From the UHGV virus genome UHGV-0180032: a DNA stretch of 64,000 bases; one strand, 5' to 3'. The position numbers were made by a program, and so were the translations under genes. The notes under the pieces are model-generated. The model was not told where the DNA came from and searched no databases. It saw only the letters and a program-made list of their open reading frames with translations. Shown in pieces: positions 53,964 to 58,812 of the stretch. Position 1 is the stretch's first letter; each line of letters begins with the position of its first letter. Source of the stretch: a virus.

Positions 53964-54512
53964 ATGCGTACATATATTCTCGAACTTGCAATTTCCGTAG
54001 AGGAACTTGTGGAAAAACTCGGTGGTACTGGACGCGGACTTCATGAGAAGACCAAAAGTATAGCCTATCTTCTCGAACCAAAATACGAACGGAAACTCCA
54101 CATGATTGCTTCCGTTCGCAACAAAGCCTCTCACAGGAGAATTCTTCCCGATCGCATAGACGTCTATGAACAAGCTGTGGAAGAAACGAGGCTCTATTTA
54201 GAAGAGCTGATTAAGAAAATTGAAGAACGGAAACGTCAACGGGCTGCGGAAATGAATGCCCGAGCTGCGGAGATAAACGCCAGATATCTAAATCGTGAAG
54301 CGTTGTGGAAACAGGTAGAAGACGAAATCGAACGTAATGAAGTTGAGACAGAACGCATGAGAGCACAAGCCTTCTCAGCGAATACTGGCTCGTCTACTAC
54401 GGAAGAGAAGAAATGGTCTGATTTGACTGTAGTAGAAAAGATAGGTTGGGGTGCCGGTATTGCAATCATGGGAGCTGCGGTTGCGTACCTTAAAATAAAG
54501 TCTCGCGACTAA
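53964..54512 (+). CDS. HEPN-like (R-x4-H) protein with coiled-coil and C-terminal TM anchor (speculative)
   Basis: GGAGAAAA RBS; N-terminal ...LHMIASVRNKASHRRI contains an R-N-x-x-x-H motif; charged coiled-coil with repeated AAEMNARAAEINAR; C-terminal hydrophobic IGWGAGIAIMGAAVAYL. Confidence 0.3.
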   Translation: MRTYILELAISVEELVEKLGGTGRGLHEKTKSIAYLLEPKYERKLHMIASVRNKASHRRILPDRIDVYEQAVEETRLYLEELIKKIEERKRQRAAEMNARAAEINARYLNREALWKQVEDEIERNEVETERMRAQAFSANTGSSTTEEKKWSDLTVVEKIGWGAGIAIMGAAVAYLKIKSRD

Positions 54513-54526
54513 ATCGGGTATCGGAA

Positions 54527-55072
54527 ATGAAACAAATACAGTTAACTGATCACGTTAATGCGTTTAAACACTTTCTGGATAACGCGGGTATAAAACCTGG
54601 CGAGCAGACAGACGCATGGACTGCACGTGTTTACGGAAGTATTGGCAAAGTCTGTGAGTCCACGACAACACAGGACGGGTTGTTTGTTGCTAAAGCAGTA
54701 GGTATTGCCTTGTGGGATATTGCTGCTCTAGTTTACGTGATGAATAACGGGGATTTACGTCCCCTTGAAAAATCATTACACCGACTACTAGCCATTAAGA
54801 AATGGAAAAATGAACATCCTGAGTCAATCGCGCTTACGTTGATGCCAGAAGCGGTACTTGCTATCAAAGCGGTACGCAGTTGTACCGCCCGTGCACAAAT
54901 GGAGCGTCGGCTACATCTCACGACGCTCTTTTATCAATTGGCCAGAATTGTAAAGATGAACGGCCTAATCTTCGACCGGGTTCTACAGAACGGACGTATA
55001 AGTTGGACAGAAGAACTAAGTAGCTCTCCGTTCTATACAAAACTAAAACTTAAAGACATTTTGAAGGATTAA
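54527..55072 (+). CDS. hypothetical protein (181 aa)
   Basis: ORF. Confidence 0.5.
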   Translation: MKQIQLTDHVNAFKHFLDNAGIKPGEQTDAWTARVYGSIGKVCESTTTQDGLFVAKAVGIALWDIAALVYVMNNGDLRPLEKSLHRLLAIKKWKNEHPESIALTLMPEAVLAIKAVRSCTARAQMERRLHLTTLFYQLARIVKMNGLIFDRVLQNGRISWTEELSSSPFYTKLKLKDILKD

Positions 55073-55073
55073 C

Positions 55074-55382
55074 ATGGAAAACTATTCGGGTTGGGCAATT
55101 TCGCAGTGCATTGGCTATTCTTTACGTTCTTTAGTGCGTACACTTTATAACAAAAACTCAGGCGAAGCTATTACACCACAGTTACTGGACAAATTGGAAG
55201 TCGAAGTTAACCACAAATTAAAGCAGTTACTCGACAACCACGTAAGAACAATGCGTTGGGAGTTCTTGTTACGTGGTAAGAAGCCTTCAATTACCGTTGT
55301 AGCAGAAGGCAGTGAAATTGTTCTCCAATCCAACGCAGACCTGTTTGAAATTTTAACTGAACTAGAAAAGGACAAAATCTGA
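55074..55382 (+). CDS. hypothetical protein (102 aa)
   Basis: Stop overlaps the start of the downstream thymidylate-synthase gene (TGATG). Confidence 0.5.
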
Positions 55383-56416
55383 TGAAACAGTATTTAGCGT
55401 TAATGCAAGACATTCTGGATAACGGTGTTGTCAAGAAAGACCGCACAGGCGTAGGGACACTTTCTGTATTTGGCCGTCAATTACGTTTTGACTTGAAAGA
55501 AGGTTTCCCATTAGTTACTACGAAAAAGGTTCACCTGAAAAGTATCATCCATGAGCTGTTGTGGTTCTTAAACGGTGACACTAACGTGAAGTACCTGCAA
55601 GAGAACGGGGTAAAAATTTGGAACGAATGGGCGAATGAAGAAGGGAACTTAGGGCCAGTATATGGTAAACAGTGGCGTGAATGGCGAGACTGTAAGGTTG
55701 TGGAAAGCCATGACGTAGGACGTACACAACAACTAATGCAGCGGGGTTACAAGTATATCGGGAATATGAAGGAAGATGGCACAACGTATTTGGTTTATGA
55801 AAAACCACATGACCAGATCAGTAAAGTTATCCAACAGCTTCGTGAAGACCCAGATTCTCGTCGTATTATCGTTAGTGCCTGGAACGTAGCCGACCTGGAC
55901 GATATGGCACTTAACCCATGTCACAACTATTTCCAATTCTACACTACGGAAATGTCACTGCTTGAGCGACTGGATTGGTACGAAGTAAACGAGCCGGAAA
56001 AATTTGCGAACGCACCGCTTATTAATCACGAAGATATTGATGATGAAGAACGACTTCATGAAACTTTAGATCGTGAGGGCATCCCACGCCGTAAGCTTTC
56101 ATGTTTTTACATGATGCGCAGCAACGATTACCTACTTGGCGCGCCATTTAACATCGCTTCTTACGCACTGTTAACCTATATGGTTGCTCAACAACTGAAC
56201 ATGGTTCCAGACGAGTTGGTTTATAGTGGTGTGGACGTTCATCTGTATTCCAACCATCTGGAGCAAGCAAAACTTCAGCTTACACGCGAACCCTACACGT
56301 TACCTAAACTGGTTATCAAACGTAAACCTGATTCTATCTTCGATTACAAATACGAAGACTTCGAATTAGTCGGCTATCAAGCTCATCCACATATTGCTGC
56401 CCCCGTCGCAGTATAA
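55382..56416 (+). CDS. thyA: thymidylate synthase family enzyme (ThyA-like; dUMP-dependent) with two insertions
   Basis: Collinear with E. coli ThyA as recalled: [55 protein letters not shown], catalytic PCH-FQFY, RS-D...[10 protein letters not shown] (Asn retained, so dUMP not dCMP), PKL.IKRKP.SIFDY..EDFE; about 38-aa and about 50-aa insertions. Confidence 0.85.
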
Positions 56417-56446
56417 ACTACCACCTAATTAAAAAGGTACGATAAA

Positions 56447-56893
56447 ATGTCTAAAACTCATGTTAATTATAACATCGTAGTAGAAGAATTATCAAAAGGT
56501 TTAACCGATCTGGATTCTAAAGATAATCCGTTTACCGAACGTTATGGTCCCAATGCTTTATCTGAATTTCGTACTATCCGCTACGGTACAGGCAGACAGA
56601 TGGGGCTTACAGACTTTGCTGTTGAATTAGCTAAAAACCATAAAGGGAAAGTGTTGTTCGTTAACCCAAAAGGGTTCTTAGAGGACGACGTGCTATTCCG
56701 TTTGGGTCTCGATGAATTACCGGAGAATATCACGCAAATCAGCGGTTACCAAATGGGTACAGAAAAAGAAAAATACAGCCTTGTTATTGTAGACGACGCT
56801 GGGGTTTTCTTTAGCATGTTCCGTTACATGAAGTTCTTCCGCTTACTTGCAAACACAGTGACTAAAGACGTTGTAATCCATTTAATGGGTTAA
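56447..56893 (+). CDS. hypothetical protein (148 aa)
   Basis: ORF. Confidence 0.5.
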   Translation: MSKTHVNYNIVVEELSKGLTDLDSKDNPFTERYGPNALSEFRTIRYGTGRQMGLTDFAVELAKNHKGKVLFVNPKGFLEDDVLFRLGLDELPENITQISGYQMGTEKEKYSLVIVDDAGVFFSMFRYMKFFRLLANTVTKDVVIHLMG

Positions 56894-56924
56894 TTAGAAC
56901 CTATCACATTCGAGTGGAAATCTA

Positions 56925-57149
56925 ATGAAGAAGCCACGCTTTCACAGCCTGAGATACTTTACAGGTACTCTATATTTTATTGGCTACAACCGTGTGCGTA
57001 AGGGTCCTGGTAAATCGAAGATGCGCATCGTGCGATATAAAGAGACGCCACCAGGTCTAGCACCGATGGCGAAACTTCTGTCGCCGTTCGCTAACCTTAA
57101 AATCAAAACTGTTAACCCCTTTGTAAGAAATTTGGAAACTAAAAAATGA
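56925..57149 (+). CDS. small basic protein (74 aa)
   Basis: ORF, Lys/Arg-rich. Confidence 0.4.
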   Translation: MKKPRFHSLRYFTGTLYFIGYNRVRKGPGKSKMRIVRYKETPPGLAPMAKLLSPFANLKIKTVNPFVRNLETKK

Positions 57150-57289
57150 CTGAAGAAGTTAAAGTAGAAACCGTTAAAGAAACTGACGAATTTGCAATCC
57201 CTGGCTTAGACCCGGAAGCTACCGTAGAGAAGGGTGCTGACCCAACTACAGAAGACGATAACTGCTCAGGCGGGGCTTGCAAAATTTAA
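57146..57289 (+). CDS. small acidic peptide (47 aa) ending CSGGACKI
   Basis: ATGA-coupled to the upstream ORF; MTEEVKVETVKETDEFAIPGLDPEATVEKGADPTTEDDNCSGGACKI; strong terminator immediately downstream. Confidence 0.35.
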   Translation: MTEEVKVETVKETDEFAIPGLDPEATVEKGADPTTEDDNCSGGACKI

Positions 57290-57297
57290 CAGTTCAC

Positions 57298-57338
57298 GGG
57301 GTGCTTATGTAGCACCCCTAATCTTTATTCTTTTTTTT
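57298..57338 (+). terminator. intrinsic terminator
   Basis: GGGGTGCT/AGCACCCC stem followed by a T8 tract. Confidence 0.75.
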
Positions 57339-57360
57339 GTTAATCTAATGGAGTTTTAGA

Positions 57361-58191
57361 ATGGGCGAACGTTTTAACATCAACGCTATCTACAACATCG
57401 TAGTTAATCCTGGTCAACACCTGGAAGAAGTTAACGCACAACTGCGTGCTCTGAATGAGAAGGCAATACAGTTCGACGCCATTTACACAATCGGTGTAAA
57501 CCCTGGTACCAATCGTATTCGCGTGGAAGGTAAACGACACACCGGCACTCAAGAACTGGACATCGAAACGATTGAAGCACCGATTAAACTTACCGACGCC
57601 GTTTATAACGGTACTGTGATGCACACCGTGTCGGTTCCGGTCTATTCTATTGCGAACTGTGCAGAGCATGTTAAAGGTTGGTCCAAAGAACGTGGCATCC
57701 TCGATAACGGTAAACTGGAAACTCAAATCACGAAATTCTTTGAAGAGTTTGGTGAAATCGCAACAGGTATCAGTAAAAACAAACCTGAACTGATCATGGA
57801 TGGCATCGGCGATGCGTTAGTGGTTTTAGTGAACATCCTGGAACTGGGTAAAGACAAACTGTCTGGTGAAATGACAACCGCTGAAATCATCGAGCACGGT
57901 TTACAATTGCAGGTAGATGATGTCGCTGACGTTGAAGAACATTTTGATGACAACGGGTATCCACATCATTTGTATCTCCACGCTACCGAAATCTTCGCTA
58001 CCGCATTTATTCGCTCCGATGCTGGTTTCGATCAGCTTAACTGGGCTTTGTACCGCCTTGCAAAACTAGCTCTCTACTATCGTCTTGACATTCGTCATTG
58101 TTTCTCTTTAGCCTGGCACGAAATCAAAGACCGTAAAGGTTACCTGAACGCCGACGGCATCTTTGTAAAAGAAGCAGACCTGGCGAAATAA
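57361..58191 (+). CDS. mazG: MazG-like nucleotide pyrophosphohydrolase domain protein (C-terminal) with N-terminal extension
   Basis: C-terminal half has KFFEEFGEIATG...DALVVLVNILELG and ...AWHEIKDRKGY, resembling the all-alpha MazG/HisE E-x-x-E ... D-x-L motifs; GGAG RBS. Confidence 0.45.
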   Translation: MGERFNINAIYNIVVNPGQHLEEVNAQLRALNEKAIQFDAIYTIGVNPGTNRIRVEGKRHTGTQELDIETIEAPIKLTDAVYNGTVMHTVSVPVYSIANCAEHVKGWSKERGILDNGKLETQITKFFEEFGEIATGISKNKPELIMDGIGDALVVLVNILELGKDKLSGEMTTAEIIEHGLQLQVDDVADVEEHFDDNGYPHHLYLHATEIFATAFIRSDAGFDQLNWALYRLAKLALYYRLDIRHCFSLAWHEIKDRKGYLNADGIFVKEADLAK

Positions 58192-58198
58192 ATAAAAG

Positions 58199-58250
58199 TA
58201 CCTACCTCCGAAAGGAGGTAGGTTAACTTTCTTATTTTTTTTTCTTTTTT
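58199..58250. terminator. bidirectional intrinsic terminator
   Basis: TACCTACCTCC/GGAGGTAGG stem with GAAA loop followed by long T-runs; between convergent gene ends 58191 and 58249. Confidence 0.75.
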
Positions 58251-58812
58251 AGGCGTCTGGAACAATTCCAGAAGTGATATACGTCAAACCGTCAAGTTCG
58301 GTAACTTTAATCAGCTTCGAAATATCCTTACCGTCAGACGGCAGTTCAGTTAAGTACACTTCCAACTGACCTGTCCACGCCAAAGATCTCCCGTTCATGA
58401 TAATGATGGTTTTATCTCTGCTGTCTGGTGCAGCTGTTGGGTTCTCAACTTCGTCGTCCGTAATCTGTAAGTTATATTTCGTACGGAACAGTTCCAATAC
58501 TTCAGAAACAGTAGTAGCGTTCACACCTGCGACAGAGACAACGAAATCACCTAACAGATGTTCCAAATCCAACCGACGATAAATCACGTCGATATTACCA
58601 AACGTTTTCTGTTCAATAATTCCCTGGACGCTGAGTTGAGTATTTAATCGTGTAAATTGAGTTTCTGGTGTTTCTACTGCGGGGATATGTGCCGGTGTGC
58701 CGAAATTCAATTTATCGATTGTAATACCTTTCTCTACCAAACCTGGATTCTTTTTTACTAATAACTCATAAACCAGTTGTTTTCCTGATTTACCTAATAG
58801 CGTATTAGCCAT
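58249..58812 (-). CDS. hypothetical protein (187 aa), possibly virion-associated
   Basis: Minus-strand ORF at the head of the right-hand minus-strand block. Confidence 0.5.
   Translation of the reverse strand: MANTLLGKSGKQLVYELLVKKNPGLVEKGITIDKLNFGTPAHIPAVETPETQFTRLNTQLSVQGIIEQKTFGNIDVIYRRLDLEHLLGDFVVSVAGVNATTVSEVLELFRTKYNLQITDDEVENPTAAPDSRDKTIIIMNGRSLAWTGQLEVYLTELPSDGKDISKLIKVTELDGLTYITSGIVPDA

What the first reader, a model, noticed from the sequence alone, without database searches (positions are those of the whole stretch)
55382..56416. Thymidylate-synthase homolog with two large insertions (possible dUMP-modifying variant)
The protein is collinear with ThyA, including the catalytic PCH and the dUMP-specifying Asn in PFNIAS. 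It carries an insertion of about 38 aa after GKQWREW and one of about 50 aa between FQFY and KLSCF. Large phages that hypermodify thymidine use ThyA-like dUMP hydroxymethyltransferases, and the insertions could alter folate or product chemistry. It is followed by a MazG-like gene.
Basis: partly seen in the sequence, partly recalled or inferred. Interest (0 to 1): 0.5.

Follow-up and report, generated by a model that had tools for sequence, protein, structure and literature searches.

The report
Jumbo-phage thymidylate synthase with conserved inserts
This gene is an ordinary dTMP-making thymidylate synthase of a large enterobacterial phage. It carries two folded, evolutionarily conserved surface insertions that are common in phage versions of the enzyme, and nothing indicates that it makes a modified base.

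Summary
ORF 55382-56416 (+, 344 aa) is collinear with E. coli ThyA, 66% identical outside two in-frame insertions: residues 103-142 (net +34) and 190-236 (net +46).

The suggested dUMP-modifying reading is not supported.
- The protein passes NCBIfam thymidylate-synthase equivalog cut-offs.
- It keeps every catalytic, phosphate-binding and folate-side residue and the C-terminal APVAV lid.
- It has the synthase state at each position where the characterised SPO1 dUMP hydroxymethylase differs (W80, W83, H147, R127, C-terminus).
- A near-identical complete phage genome also encodes DHFR and thymidylate kinase, and no thymidine-hypermodification families were listed.

Both insertions are predicted to fold (AlphaFold2 mean pLDDT 93.9) and are under purifying selection.
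- Insertion 1 matches a same-length segment in the solved Burkholderia ThyA structure 3v8h.
- Insertion 2 is a helical excursion on the tip of the dimer-interface hairpin and has no solved homolog.
- Both are structurally shared with the 201phi2-1 enzyme (TMq 0.92).
- Insertions at the same sites occur in most of the top 150 cluster representatives, and in both contexts examined these lie on phage-like contigs.

What the insertions do is unknown; a role in protein contacts or the dimer interface is my inference. Interest is low.

The parts
55382..56416 (+). thyA: ThyA-type thymidylate synthase, 344 aa including both insertions
   Evidence: ORF. PF00303 E=6.8e-110, full length. NCBIfam equivalogs NF002499 (410.8 bits, cut-off 405), NF002497 (397.9, cut-off 327) and TIGR03284 (341, cut-off 108). 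E. coli ThyA is the best PDB match, E~1e-107. The AF2 model superposes on E. coli TS with TMt 0.96.
55688..55807 (+). Insertion 1 (residues 103-142, net +34), between the Y94 helix and the DQI helix. Predicted beta-alpha-beta-beta unit.
   Evidence: Gap in the alignment to E. coli ThyA. AF2 places E101-108, H112-120, E124-131 and E134-143 at pLDDT 94-97. Ungapped 50-residue match to Burkholderia thailandensis ThyA 3v8h residues 113-162, E=0.0054. 3v8h gives the highest TMq among PDB hits, 0.78. dN/dS 0.047.
55949..56089 (+). Insertion 2 (residues 190-236, net +46), at the tip of the beta-hairpin Ec149-166. Predicted three-helix excursion with one flexible loop.
   Evidence: Gap in the alignment to E. 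coli ThyA. AF2 places H193-203, H205-209 and H222-231; pLDDT is about 62 in the block covering residues 211-220 and 88-96 elsewhere. The edges are conserved across divergent relatives (T.E[LM][ST]..ER and [IV]P[KR][RY].LSC; R196 nearly invariant and P235 invariant in alignment A2). No PDB homolog. dN/dS 0.122. Structurally shared with the 201phi2-1 TS, TMq 0.92.
55919..55921 (+). Codon of the catalytic nucleophile Cys180 (= E. coli C146) in P-C-H
   Evidence: Invariant in alignments A1 and A2 and in 153 of 153 relatives.
56150..56152 (+). Codon of Asn257 (= E. coli N177), the dUMP-versus-dCMP specificity residue
   Evidence: Alignment. The role of N177 is taken from PMC8670742.
56399..56413 (+). 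C-terminal APVAV (= E. coli APVAI), the lid that closes the active site in thymidylate synthases
   Evidence: Same register as E. coli ThyA. Replaced by an unrelated tail of about 120 aa in the SPO1 dUMP hydroxymethylase. Its role in closure and hydride transfer rests on established ThyA enzymology, recalled from my own knowledge.
57361..58191 (+). MazG-like nucleotide pyrophosphohydrolase (276 aa). This is neighbouring context and a possible supplier of dNMP substrate; the link to thyA is only positional.
   Evidence: phrog_7855 E=5.6e-72. Pfam MazG E=0.0012, below the gathering score. No NCBIfam hit. Best PDB match is only E=0.025. A PRA-PH/MazG-like gene also lies next to an insertion-bearing ThyA in the unrelated contig L007.

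Best explanation
The gene encodes a catalytically standard ThyA-type thymidylate synthase: dUMP + 5,10-methylene-tetrahydrofolate -> dTMP + dihydrofolate. It belongs to a phage of about 222 kb that is SPN3US-like and phiKZ-related and infects enterobacteria. Together with the phage's DHFR and thymidylate kinase it supplies dTTP for replication of the large phage genome.

The two insertions are folded surface additions at recurrent indel sites of the ThyA fold. Insertion 1 is a beta-alpha-beta-beta unit that also occurs in Burkholderia-type bacterial ThyA. Insertion 2 is a helical excursion on the tip of the beta-hairpin that forms the core of the dimer interface, and it is found almost only in phage enzymes. 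Neither replaces a catalytic residue.

My inference, not shown, is that the insertions add protein-contact surface. Insertion 2 may extend or stabilise the homodimer or dock a partner enzyme. I put that at about 40%, against about 35% for folded passengers with no separate function.
For: **Shown**
- Full-length PF00303 match and three NCBIfam thymidylate-synthase equivalog cut-offs passed.
- 66% identity to E. coli ThyA outside the insertions.
- R21, E58, W80, W83, Y94, R126, R127, C146, H147, R166, S167, D169, N177, H207, Y209 and the C-terminal lid are all retained.
- The model superposes on E. coli TS with TMt 0.96.
- At every position where the SPO1 dUMP hydroxymethylase departs from ThyA, the window protein has the ThyA state.
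- The complete relative NZ_CP173450.1 has thyA at 92.6% nucleotide identity and neighbouring proteins at 95-100% amino-acid identity. It encodes DHFR_1 (5e-47) and Thymidylate_kin (1.8e-17), and no 5-HMUDK, aGPT-Pplase, TET_JBP, glycosyltransferase or dCMP-deaminase family was listed.
- SPN3US-type phages are reported to carry DHFR, TS and Tmk (PMC6614189).

**The insertions are real protein**
- No length variation in 120 relatives; dN/dS 0.05 and 0.12.
- Confident AF2 fold.
- Insertion 1 matches 3v8h.
- Both insertions match the 201phi2-1 TS.
- Insertions at these sites are common among the top 150 cluster representatives.
- No RNA family hit in the region.
Against: - No enzymology or nucleoside analysis exists for this protein or, as far as I could find, for any insertion-bearing relative.
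- Ec Q165, which helps orient N177, is Met here. The same position is M, I, L or A in 44 of 153 relatives and Ile in the solved ThyA 3v8h.
- DHFR and Tmk were seen in a close relative, not in the 64-kb window itself.
- The relative also has an NT5C-type 5'-deoxynucleotidase, two radical-SAM proteins and several GNATs of unknown role.
- The first Pfam batch listed only 25 of 33 families, so weak single hits were hidden.
- The proposed contact or dimer role of the insertions is untested. The structure tool returns no coordinates, so distances to the active site and to the two-fold axis could not be measured.
Confidence: 0.85

Rival explanations
1. The enzyme is a dUMP hydroxymethylase or other dUMP-modifying variant that feeds a thymidine-hypermodification pathway, and the insertions open the active site to water or change folate chemistry.
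For: - Phage ThyA homologs do include dUMP hydroxymethylases (PMC8989533).
- SPO1 gp29 is also longer than ThyA, at 383 aa.
- A MazG-like gene lies nearby.
- The relative has an NT5C nucleotidase, radical-SAM proteins and GNATs.
- Q165 is replaced by Met.
Against: - Only 19% identity over 113 residues to SPO1 gp29, against 66% to E. coli ThyA.
- gp29 lacks W80, W83, H147, R127 and the C-terminal lid; the window protein has all of them.
- It passes thymidylate-synthase equivalog cut-offs.
- DHFR is needed only when folate is oxidised. DHFR and thymidylate kinase are both present in the near-identical genome.
- No 5-HMUDK, aGPT-Pplase or TET_JBP family was listed.
- Insertion 1 occurs in an ordinary bacterial ThyA structure.
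- H147 and N177, the positions that best separate modification-associated homologs, are in the unmodified state (PMC8670742).
Confidence: 0.04
2. The insertions are folded but functionally neutral lineage-specific decorations at permissive surface sites. They are kept only because removing them would destabilise the fold.
For: - The same three sites tolerate insertions of 8 to about 270 residues in relatives.
- The middle of insertion 2 is highly variable in sequence, length and charge.
- The insertions occur independently of each other: insertion 2 without insertion 1 in 29 representatives, the reverse in 17.
- The crude tree needs many gains or losses.
Against: - Conserved edge motifs, with R196 nearly invariant and P235 invariant.
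- Purifying selection.
- Retained from enterobacterial to Pseudomonas chimalliviruses at 34% identity.
- The insertion-2 entry motif is nearly absent from 185,579 species-representative genomes, which suggests a phage-specific benefit.
Confidence: 0.35
3. The insertions are remnants of mobile elements (intein, in-frame intron or homing-endonuclease scar) of the kind known in phage td genes.
For: - Some phage thymidylate-synthase records show a homing endonuclease beside td or a match split into two places.
- Some relatives carry insertions of 130-270 aa at the same sites.
Against: - The ORF is continuous and has the same length in 120 relatives, with dN/dS far below 1.
- No Rfam family, including introns, reaches E<=1 in window 54000-58500.
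- Pfam finds no intein or endonuclease domain in this protein or in ten relatives with giant insertions or an N-terminal extension.
- 40-47 residues is far too short for an intein.
- The insertions have confident structure packed on the core.
Confidence: 0.02
4. Loss of Gln165 relaxes pyrimidine specificity, so the enzyme also methylates dCMP.
For: Q165 is Met in the window and Ala in Goslar. From my own knowledge of ThyA enzymology, Q165 helps fix the orientation of N177.
Against: - N177 is retained, and Asp at 177 is what marks cytosine-modifying homologs (PMC8670742).
- Q165 is hydrophobic or Ala in 44 of 153 relatives and Ile in the Burkholderia ThyA structure.
- SPN3US keeps Gln.
Confidence: 0.03

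Closest known systems
E. coli ThyA (thymidylate synthase, EC 2.1.1.45; PDB 2tsc, 1tys and others)
   Same: 66% identity outside the insertions. Identical N-terminus (MKQYL). All catalytic and binding residues and the C-terminal lid are retained. TMt 0.96.
   Different: Two insertions, +34 and +46 residues. Q165 is Met and C168 is Asn.
Thymidylate synthases of chimalliviruses: SPN3US gp229, Goslar gp141 and 201phi2-1 TS (B3FJL1)
   Same: Both insertions lie at the same sites. Identity is 65% to SPN3US and to Goslar over the full length. TMq is 0.92 to the 201phi2-1 model. Gene neighbourhood is syntenic with SPN3US.
   Different: No megablast-level DNA similarity. The middle of insertion 2 diverges, at 38-44% identity. 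The 201phi2-1 enzyme is 457 aa, with further additions.
Burkholderia thailandensis ThyA, PDB 3v8h (NCBIfam NF010393 / PRK13821 type)
   Same: A segment of the same length and position as insertion 1 (ungapped 50-residue alignment, E=0.0054). Hydrophobic residue at Ec165 and an RSND motif. Highest TMq among PDB hits, 0.78.
   Different: About 32% identity overall. No insertion 2. The window protein scores 230 bits against a cut-off of 576 for that subfamily.
Lactobacillus casei / Enterococcus faecalis-type ThyA with a ~50-residue 'small domain' insertion (PDB 3uwl)
   Same: Precedent for a large structured insertion in an active ThyA. That site (after Ec87) is the third indel hot spot seen among relatives.
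   Different: The window protein has no insertion at that site.
Phage T4 Td thymidylate synthase
   Same: A phage-encoded ThyA working with a phage DHFR. From memory, its surface insertions were proposed as contact sites in the T4 dNTP-synthesising complex, which is the model for my inferred role.
   Different: About 37% identity (RB69 td). Its insertions lie at other positions, and td carries a group I intron, of which there is no sign here.
SPO1 gp29 dUMP hydroxymethylase; T4-type gp42 dCMP hydroxymethylase
   Same: Same superfamily fold. Catalytic Cys, E58, Y94, R21, R166 and N177 are shared with gp29.
   Different: 19% identity over 113 residues. gp29 lacks W80, W83, H147, R127 and the C-terminal lid. 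The Acj9 gp42 model gives TMq of only 0.52.

Membership tests
ThyA-type thymidylate synthase (EC 2.1.1.45) | Full-length match to the family profile above curated thresholds | tested here: met
   PF00303: 366.8 bits against a gathering score of 24.3, profile positions 1-266. NF002499: 410.8 against 405. NF002497: 397.9 against 327. TIGR03284: 341 against 108.35.
ThyA-type thymidylate synthase (EC 2.1.1.45) | Catalytic nucleophile Cys146 followed by His147 | tested here: met
   C180 and H181. Invariant in A1 and A2; C in 153 of 153 relatives and H in 152 of 153.
ThyA-type thymidylate synthase (EC 2.1.1.45) | dUMP phosphate-binding arginines R21, R166, R126', R127', plus S167 | tested here: met
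   R21, R246, R160, R161 and S247 are present.
ThyA-type thymidylate synthase (EC 2.1.1.45) | Asn177 (uracil rather than cytosine specificity) | tested here: met
   N257 in PFNIAS. Role taken from PMC8670742.
ThyA-type thymidylate synthase (EC 2.1.1.45) | Residues for proton and hydride transfer and folate packing (E58, W80, W83, Y94, D169, H207, Y209), and a C-terminal lid ending at the ThyA register | tested here: met
   All are present, and the protein ends APVAV aligned to E. coli APVAI.
ThyA-type thymidylate synthase (EC 2.1.1.45) | Gln165 (conserved, but not defining; it helps orient Asn177) | tested here: not met
   M245 here. The position is M, I, L or A in 44 of 153 relatives and Ile in the solved ThyA 3v8h, so it does not exclude membership.
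ThyA-type thymidylate synthase (EC 2.1.1.45) | ThyA fold | tested here: met
   AF2 mean pLDDT 93.9. Foldseek against E. coli TS: TMt 0.96, E about 1e-42.
ThyA-type thymidylate synthase (EC 2.1.1.45) | A DHFR in the same genome to regenerate tetrahydrofolate, and a thymidylate kinase downstream | tested here: met
   DHFR_1 at 5e-47 and Thymidylate_kin at 1.8e-17 in the complete relative NZ_CP173450.1. These genes lie outside the 64-kb window itself.
ThyA-type thymidylate synthase (EC 2.1.1.45) | dTMP and dihydrofolate as products; complementation of a thyA mutant | not testable with these tools
   Needs enzymology or genetics.
dUMP hydroxymethylase (SPO1 gp29 type) | Sequence relatedness to a characterised member | tested here: not met
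   BLASTP against SPO1 gp29: 22 of 113 residues identical, E=9e-5. By contrast, identity to E. coli ThyA is 66%.
dUMP hydroxymethylase (SPO1 gp29 type) | Active site as in gp29: no W80 or W83, PCN instead of PCH, R127 replaced, and no ThyA C-terminal lid | tested here: not met
   Alignment A6 shows the window protein has the ThyA state at each of these positions. Caveats: only one characterised hydroxymethylase was compared, and the alignment is at low identity.
dUMP hydroxymethylase (SPO1 gp29 type) | Genomic partners of the pathway (dCMP deaminase, dTTPase/dTMPase, 5-HMUDK, aGPT-Pplase) | tested here: not met
   None of these appears in the Pfam lists for 190 ORFs of the complete relative. 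An NT5C-type nucleotidase is present and ambiguous. The first batch showed 25 of 33 families.
dUMP hydroxymethylase (SPO1 gp29 type) | 5-hydroxymethyl-dUMP as product; hmdU or a derivative in virion DNA | not testable with these tools
   Needs an enzyme assay and nucleoside LC-MS.
dCMP hydroxymethylase / dCMP methylase | Asp at E. coli position 177 | tested here: not met
   Asn257. The criterion comes from PMC8670742.
Burkholderia-type ThyA (NCBIfam NF010393 / PRK13821) | Whole-protein score above the equivalog cut-off | tested here: not met
   230.2 bits against a cut-off of 576. Only insertion 1 is shared.
Intein- or intron-interrupted phage td genes | Intein or endonuclease domain, or a group I intron, within the gene | tested here: not met
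   PF00303 is the only Pfam family. No Rfam match at E<=1 in window 54000-58500. The ORF is continuous and under purifying selection.

The most novel reading that the evidence does not exclude
Insertion 2, possibly together with insertion 1, is a phage-specific docking module on the thymidylate synthase dimer. It would extend the dimer interface across the two-fold axis or recruit partner enzymes (DHFR, thymidylate kinase, the MazG-like pyrophosphohydrolase). The result would be a cytoplasmic dTTP-synthesising complex for phages whose DNA replicates inside a protein shell, analogous to the T4 dNTP-synthetase complex but built from a different structural element.
Probability: 0.2. Interest if true: 0.5.

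Novelty: new member of a known kind. Interest (0 to 1): 0.2.

Why it matters
The main value is negative. A tempting 'hypermodification enzyme' reading is replaced by a well-supported ordinary one, so this phage should be assumed to contain normal thymidine.

There is also a modest positive point. Insertions at three fixed sites are common in phage-encoded ThyA. Insertion 2 is a helical module of about 45 residues on the dimer-interface hairpin. It has conserved edges and no solved structure, and I found no paper that describes it. It is present in model nucleus-forming phages (201phi2-1, SPN3US, Goslar), where its role could be tested easily.

Tried and rejected
- Megablast of thyA against the phage collection found nothing. 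Relatives appeared only at the protein level.
- A MAFFT alignment of 154 sequences timed out and was replaced by pairwise mapping to E. coli ThyA.
It was rerun without them.
- The afdb50 fold library was unavailable.
- The listing of cluster members returned no organism names for divergent relatives. Two genomic contexts were read instead.
- tblastn with insertion 2 alone found only ThyA genes of SPN3US-like phages, Erwinia jumbo phages and Proteus phage 7, so it is not borrowed from another protein. phmmer of insertion 2 against PDB found nothing.
- Giant insertions in relatives were checked as possible inteins or endonucleases; Pfam finds nothing in them.
- A neighbour-joining and parsimony test of single versus multiple origin of the insertions was inconclusive. 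Insertion 2 needs 26 steps against 37 when shuffled, on a poorly resolved tree.
- The idea that insertion 2 is a conserved acidic appendage was rejected. Its net charge is -10 here, but the mean is only -2.4 across 105 sequences.
- Literature searches for a description of these insertions, or for DNA modification in Seoulvirus-type phages, gave nothing relevant.
- The MazG-like protein has no convincing solved homolog.
Full report
**1. The observation**

The window has an ORF at 55382-56416 on the + strand, 344 aa. It matches the whole Pfam thymidylate-synthase profile, PF00303 positions 1-266, with E=6.8e-110. Its best solved relatives are E. coli ThyA entries (E about 1e-107), aligned in three blocks:
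- query 1-102 = Ec 1-102
- query 143-189 = Ec 109-155
- query 237-344 = Ec 157-264

Two in-frame insertions follow from this. Insertion 1 is residues 103-142 (nt 55688-55807, net +34). Insertion 2 is residues 190-236 (nt 55949-56089, net +46). PCH and PFNIAS are present.

**2. Whose gene it is**

The identical protein occurs on contigs of 222-226 kb assembled from E. coli, Salmonella and Shigella samples. A 92.6%-identical copy lies on a circular 221,873-bp 'plasmid' of a urinary E. coli isolate, NZ_CP173450.1. Its neighbouring proteins are 95-100% identical to those of the window. That record carries phiKZ-type internal head proteins, vertex proteins and the S80 prohead protease.

Among cultured phages the nearest are SPN3US-like Salmonella phages, Goslar, Proteus phage 7 and Erwinia jumbo phages. 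They are 58-65% identical across the full 344 aa. At the DNA level the best match is only about 74% identity over 14-19% of a 24-kb stretch.

This fits the recently proposed chimallivirus genus 'Bapsvirus'. It is described as about 220 kb, known only from bacterial assemblies, and syntenic with Seoulvirus (PMC12768965).

**3. What the enzyme is**

Outside the insertions the protein is 66% identical to E. coli ThyA. It passes three NCBIfam thymidylate-synthase equivalog cut-offs despite the insertions.

All residues known to bind dUMP, perform catalysis or pack the folate are retained: R21, E58, W80, W83, Y94, R126, R127, C146, H147, R166, S167, D169, N177, H207 and Y209. So is the C-terminal lid, APVAV. 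The only departure is Q165 to Met. That position is M, I, L or A in 44 of 153 relatives and Ile in the crystal structure of Burkholderia ThyA.

The AF2 model (mean pLDDT 93.9, pTM 0.92) superposes on E. coli TS with TMt 0.96.

**4. Test of the hydroxymethylase idea**

I fetched the characterised dUMP hydroxymethylase of SPO1, gene 29.
- It shares 22 of 113 aligned residues with the window protein, E=9e-5.
- In a joint alignment it lacks W80 and W83, reads PCN instead of PCH, and has Gln at R127.
- It replaces the ThyA C-terminal lid with an unrelated tail of about 120 residues.
- At each of these positions the window protein has the ThyA state.

Positions 177 and 147 are reported as the best discriminators of modification-associated homologs (PMC8670742). 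Both are in the unmodified state here.

Thymidine hypermodification needs a hydroxymethylase together with enzymes such as dCMP deaminase, dTTP/dTMP-depleting enzymes, 5-HMUDK and aGPT-Pplase (PMC8989533). A Pfam scan of 190 ORFs of the complete relative listed none of these. It did find DHFR_1 (5e-47) and thymidylate kinase (1.8e-17). DHFR is needed precisely because a true synthase oxidises the folate. SPN3US-type phages are also reported to carry DHFR, TS and Tmk (PMC6614189).

Caveats:
- These genes lie outside the 64-kb window.
- One batch listed only 25 of 33 families.
- The relative has an NT5C nucleotidase, two radical-SAM proteins and several GNATs of unknown role.

**5. What the insertions are**

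They are translated, folded and selected.
- All 120 close relatives have exactly 344 residues. dN/dS against the E. coli-borne copy is 0.027 for the core, 0.047 for insertion 1 and 0.122 for insertion 2, though with few non-synonymous changes.
- No RNA family, introns included, matches the region. Pfam sees no intein or endonuclease.
- AF2 predicts insertion 1 as strand-helix-strand-strand (101-143, pLDDT at least 94). It predicts insertion 2 as three helices (193-203, 205-209, 222-231) with one flexible loop.

Insertion 1 aligns without gaps, over 50 residues, to residues 113-162 of the solved Burkholderia thailandensis ThyA, 3v8h (E=0.0054). That entry gives the highest query-normalised TM-score in the PDB, 0.78. 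Insertion 1 is therefore an already crystallised feature of an ordinary bacterial ThyA subfamily. The window protein does not itself belong to that subfamily (230 bits against a cut-off of 576).

Insertion 2 has no solved homolog. In the phage collection it hits only ThyA genes. Both insertions are structurally present in the 457-aa TS of Pseudomonas phage 201phi2-1 (TMq 0.92, rmsd 2.3 A, 34% identity).

**6. How widespread they are**

An exhaustive profile-free search of 1.84 billion cluster representatives returned 15,556 ThyA homologs. I mapped the best 150, plus the window, SPN3US and Goslar proteins, onto E. coli ThyA (153 sequences).

| Site | E. coli position | Size range seen | Insertion of at least 20 aa |
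|---|---|---|---|
| A | Ec 80-87 (the Enterococcus/L. casei site) | up to +206 | 52 of 153 |
| B | Ec 99-109 (insertion 1) | +8 to +272 | 84 of 153 |
| C | Ec 151-159 (insertion 2) | typically +30 to +60 | 111 of 153 |

This list is biased towards sequences that share the query's insertions.

Insertion 2 has recognisable conserved edges, T.E[LM][ST]..ER at entry and [IV]P[KR][RY].LSC at exit. R196 is nearly invariant and P235 is invariant in alignment A2. The middle is variable.

Two divergent carriers sit on phage-like contigs. One is 127 kb, with RNR and a PRA-PH/MazG-like gene next to thyA. The other is 78 kb, with primase and tail genes.

The entry motif of insertion 2 occurs only four times in 185,579 species-representative genomes, always on MAG contigs. 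The motif is narrow, so this gives only a lower bound.

A crude core tree shows the insertions are phylogenetically clustered. It cannot distinguish one origin followed by losses from repeated gain.

**7. How it most likely works**

The gene content and the sequence and model comparisons are shown; the activities themselves were not assayed. The protein is a standard ThyA that converts dUMP and methylene-tetrahydrofolate to dTMP and dihydrofolate. The phage DHFR recycles the folate and the phage thymidylate kinase takes dTMP onward.

A TS-GFP fusion is reported to be excluded from the phage nucleus in PhiPA3-type infections (PMC9067925). The pathway is therefore probably cytoplasmic.

The rest is inference. 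From established ThyA structures, recalled from my own knowledge, insertion 2 grows from the tip of the hairpin Ec149-166, which forms the centre of the dimer interface. C146 lies at the start of that hairpin and Q165-D169 at its end. That places the insertion at the end of the hairpin far from the active site and close to the two-fold axis.

I therefore favour a role in dimer stabilisation or partner docking, by analogy with what was proposed for surface insertions of T4 Td. I give that about 40%, against about 35% for folded passengers with no separate function. I could not measure distances because no model coordinates are returned.

**8. Comparison with what is known, and verdict**

This is a member of the ThyA family. 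It is of the type already annotated as thymidylate synthase in SPN3US, Goslar and 201phi2-1. It is not a dUMP or dCMP hydroxymethylase.

I found no paper describing the insertions. Insertion 2 is thus an uncharacterised but common structural elaboration of phage ThyA. It is a small, testable curiosity rather than a surprise. Interest is 0.2.

Noticed in passing
whole window; related records NZ_CP173450.1 (L003-L006, L009) and NZ_CP134650.1: The window comes from a jumbo phage of about 222 kb, phiKZ/SPN3US-related, that is absent from the phage collection at near-identity level. It is deposited as a circular 'plasmid' in an E. coli urine isolate and in Enterobacter ludwigii, and it appears on more than 100 assembly contigs from E. 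coli, Salmonella and Shigella. It fits the published 'Bapsvirus' / persistent virulent phage description (PMC12768965; bioRxiv 10.1101/2024.12.31.630880).
   Followed up: yes
proteins P0159, P0230, P0151, P0172, P0227, P0121, P0270, P0128, P0183 (metagenomic ThyA relatives): Some ThyA relatives carry insertions of 130-270 residues at the same hot spots (Ec 80-87 and Ec 99-109), giving proteins of 530-590 aa. Pfam recognises nothing inside these insertions, neither inteins nor endonucleases.
   Followed up: partly
window 54527-55072 and 55074-55382 (+), also 57361-58191: The two ORFs just upstream of thyA match the N-terminal and C-terminal parts of a single 299-position PHROG (phrog_10269). 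They may therefore be a split gene or two halves of one. The N-terminal part of the MazG-like protein also hits the start of that PHROG.
   Followed up: no
L006:43281-43601 (NZ_CP173450.1 193281-193601) versus window ~55382: The E. coli-borne relative has an extra 106-aa ORF between the 102-aa ORF and thyA. The window phage lacks it, so there is a small indel of a whole gene beside thyA.
   Followed up: partly
L007:8995-9858 and L007:10001-11065: In an unrelated 127-kb phage-like metagenomic contig, a PRA-PH/MazG-like gene sits immediately upstream of an insertion-bearing ThyA and next to RNR genes. This echoes the thyA / MazG-like proximity in the window.
   Followed up: partly
window residue M245 (nt 56114-56116); PDB 3v8h: E. 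coli Gln165, usually regarded as conserved, is Met here and Ala in Goslar. It is M, I, L or A in 44 of 153 relatives and Ile in the solved Burkholderia ThyA. The neighbouring RSND motif also matches 3v8h.
   Followed up: partly
L006:19524-20072; L003:28483-30721; several GNAT ORFs in L004 and L009: The complete relative encodes an NT5C-type 5'-deoxynucleotidase, two adjacent radical-SAM proteins, several GNAT acetyltransferases and a Dam-type methylase. Their roles in nucleotide or DNA metabolism were not examined.
   Followed up: no
window 55949-56089: Insertion 2 of this phage carries a net charge of -10, out of the protein's -11. Across 105 insertion-2 sequences the mean is only -2.4, so the strong acidity is specific to this lineage.
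   Followed up: yes
L001:8001-9038 (SPN3US_0229): The SPN3US thymidylate synthase is annotated as starting 21 nt downstream of the conserved MKQYL start shared with E. coli ThyA and the window protein. This is probably a mis-called start.
   Followed up: partly
L012:4567-5595: A 342-aa ThyA with insertions lies on a 116-kb contig binned into a Lysinibacter MAG, among hypothetical genes. This may be a phage contig binned with a bacterial genome.
   Followed up: partly
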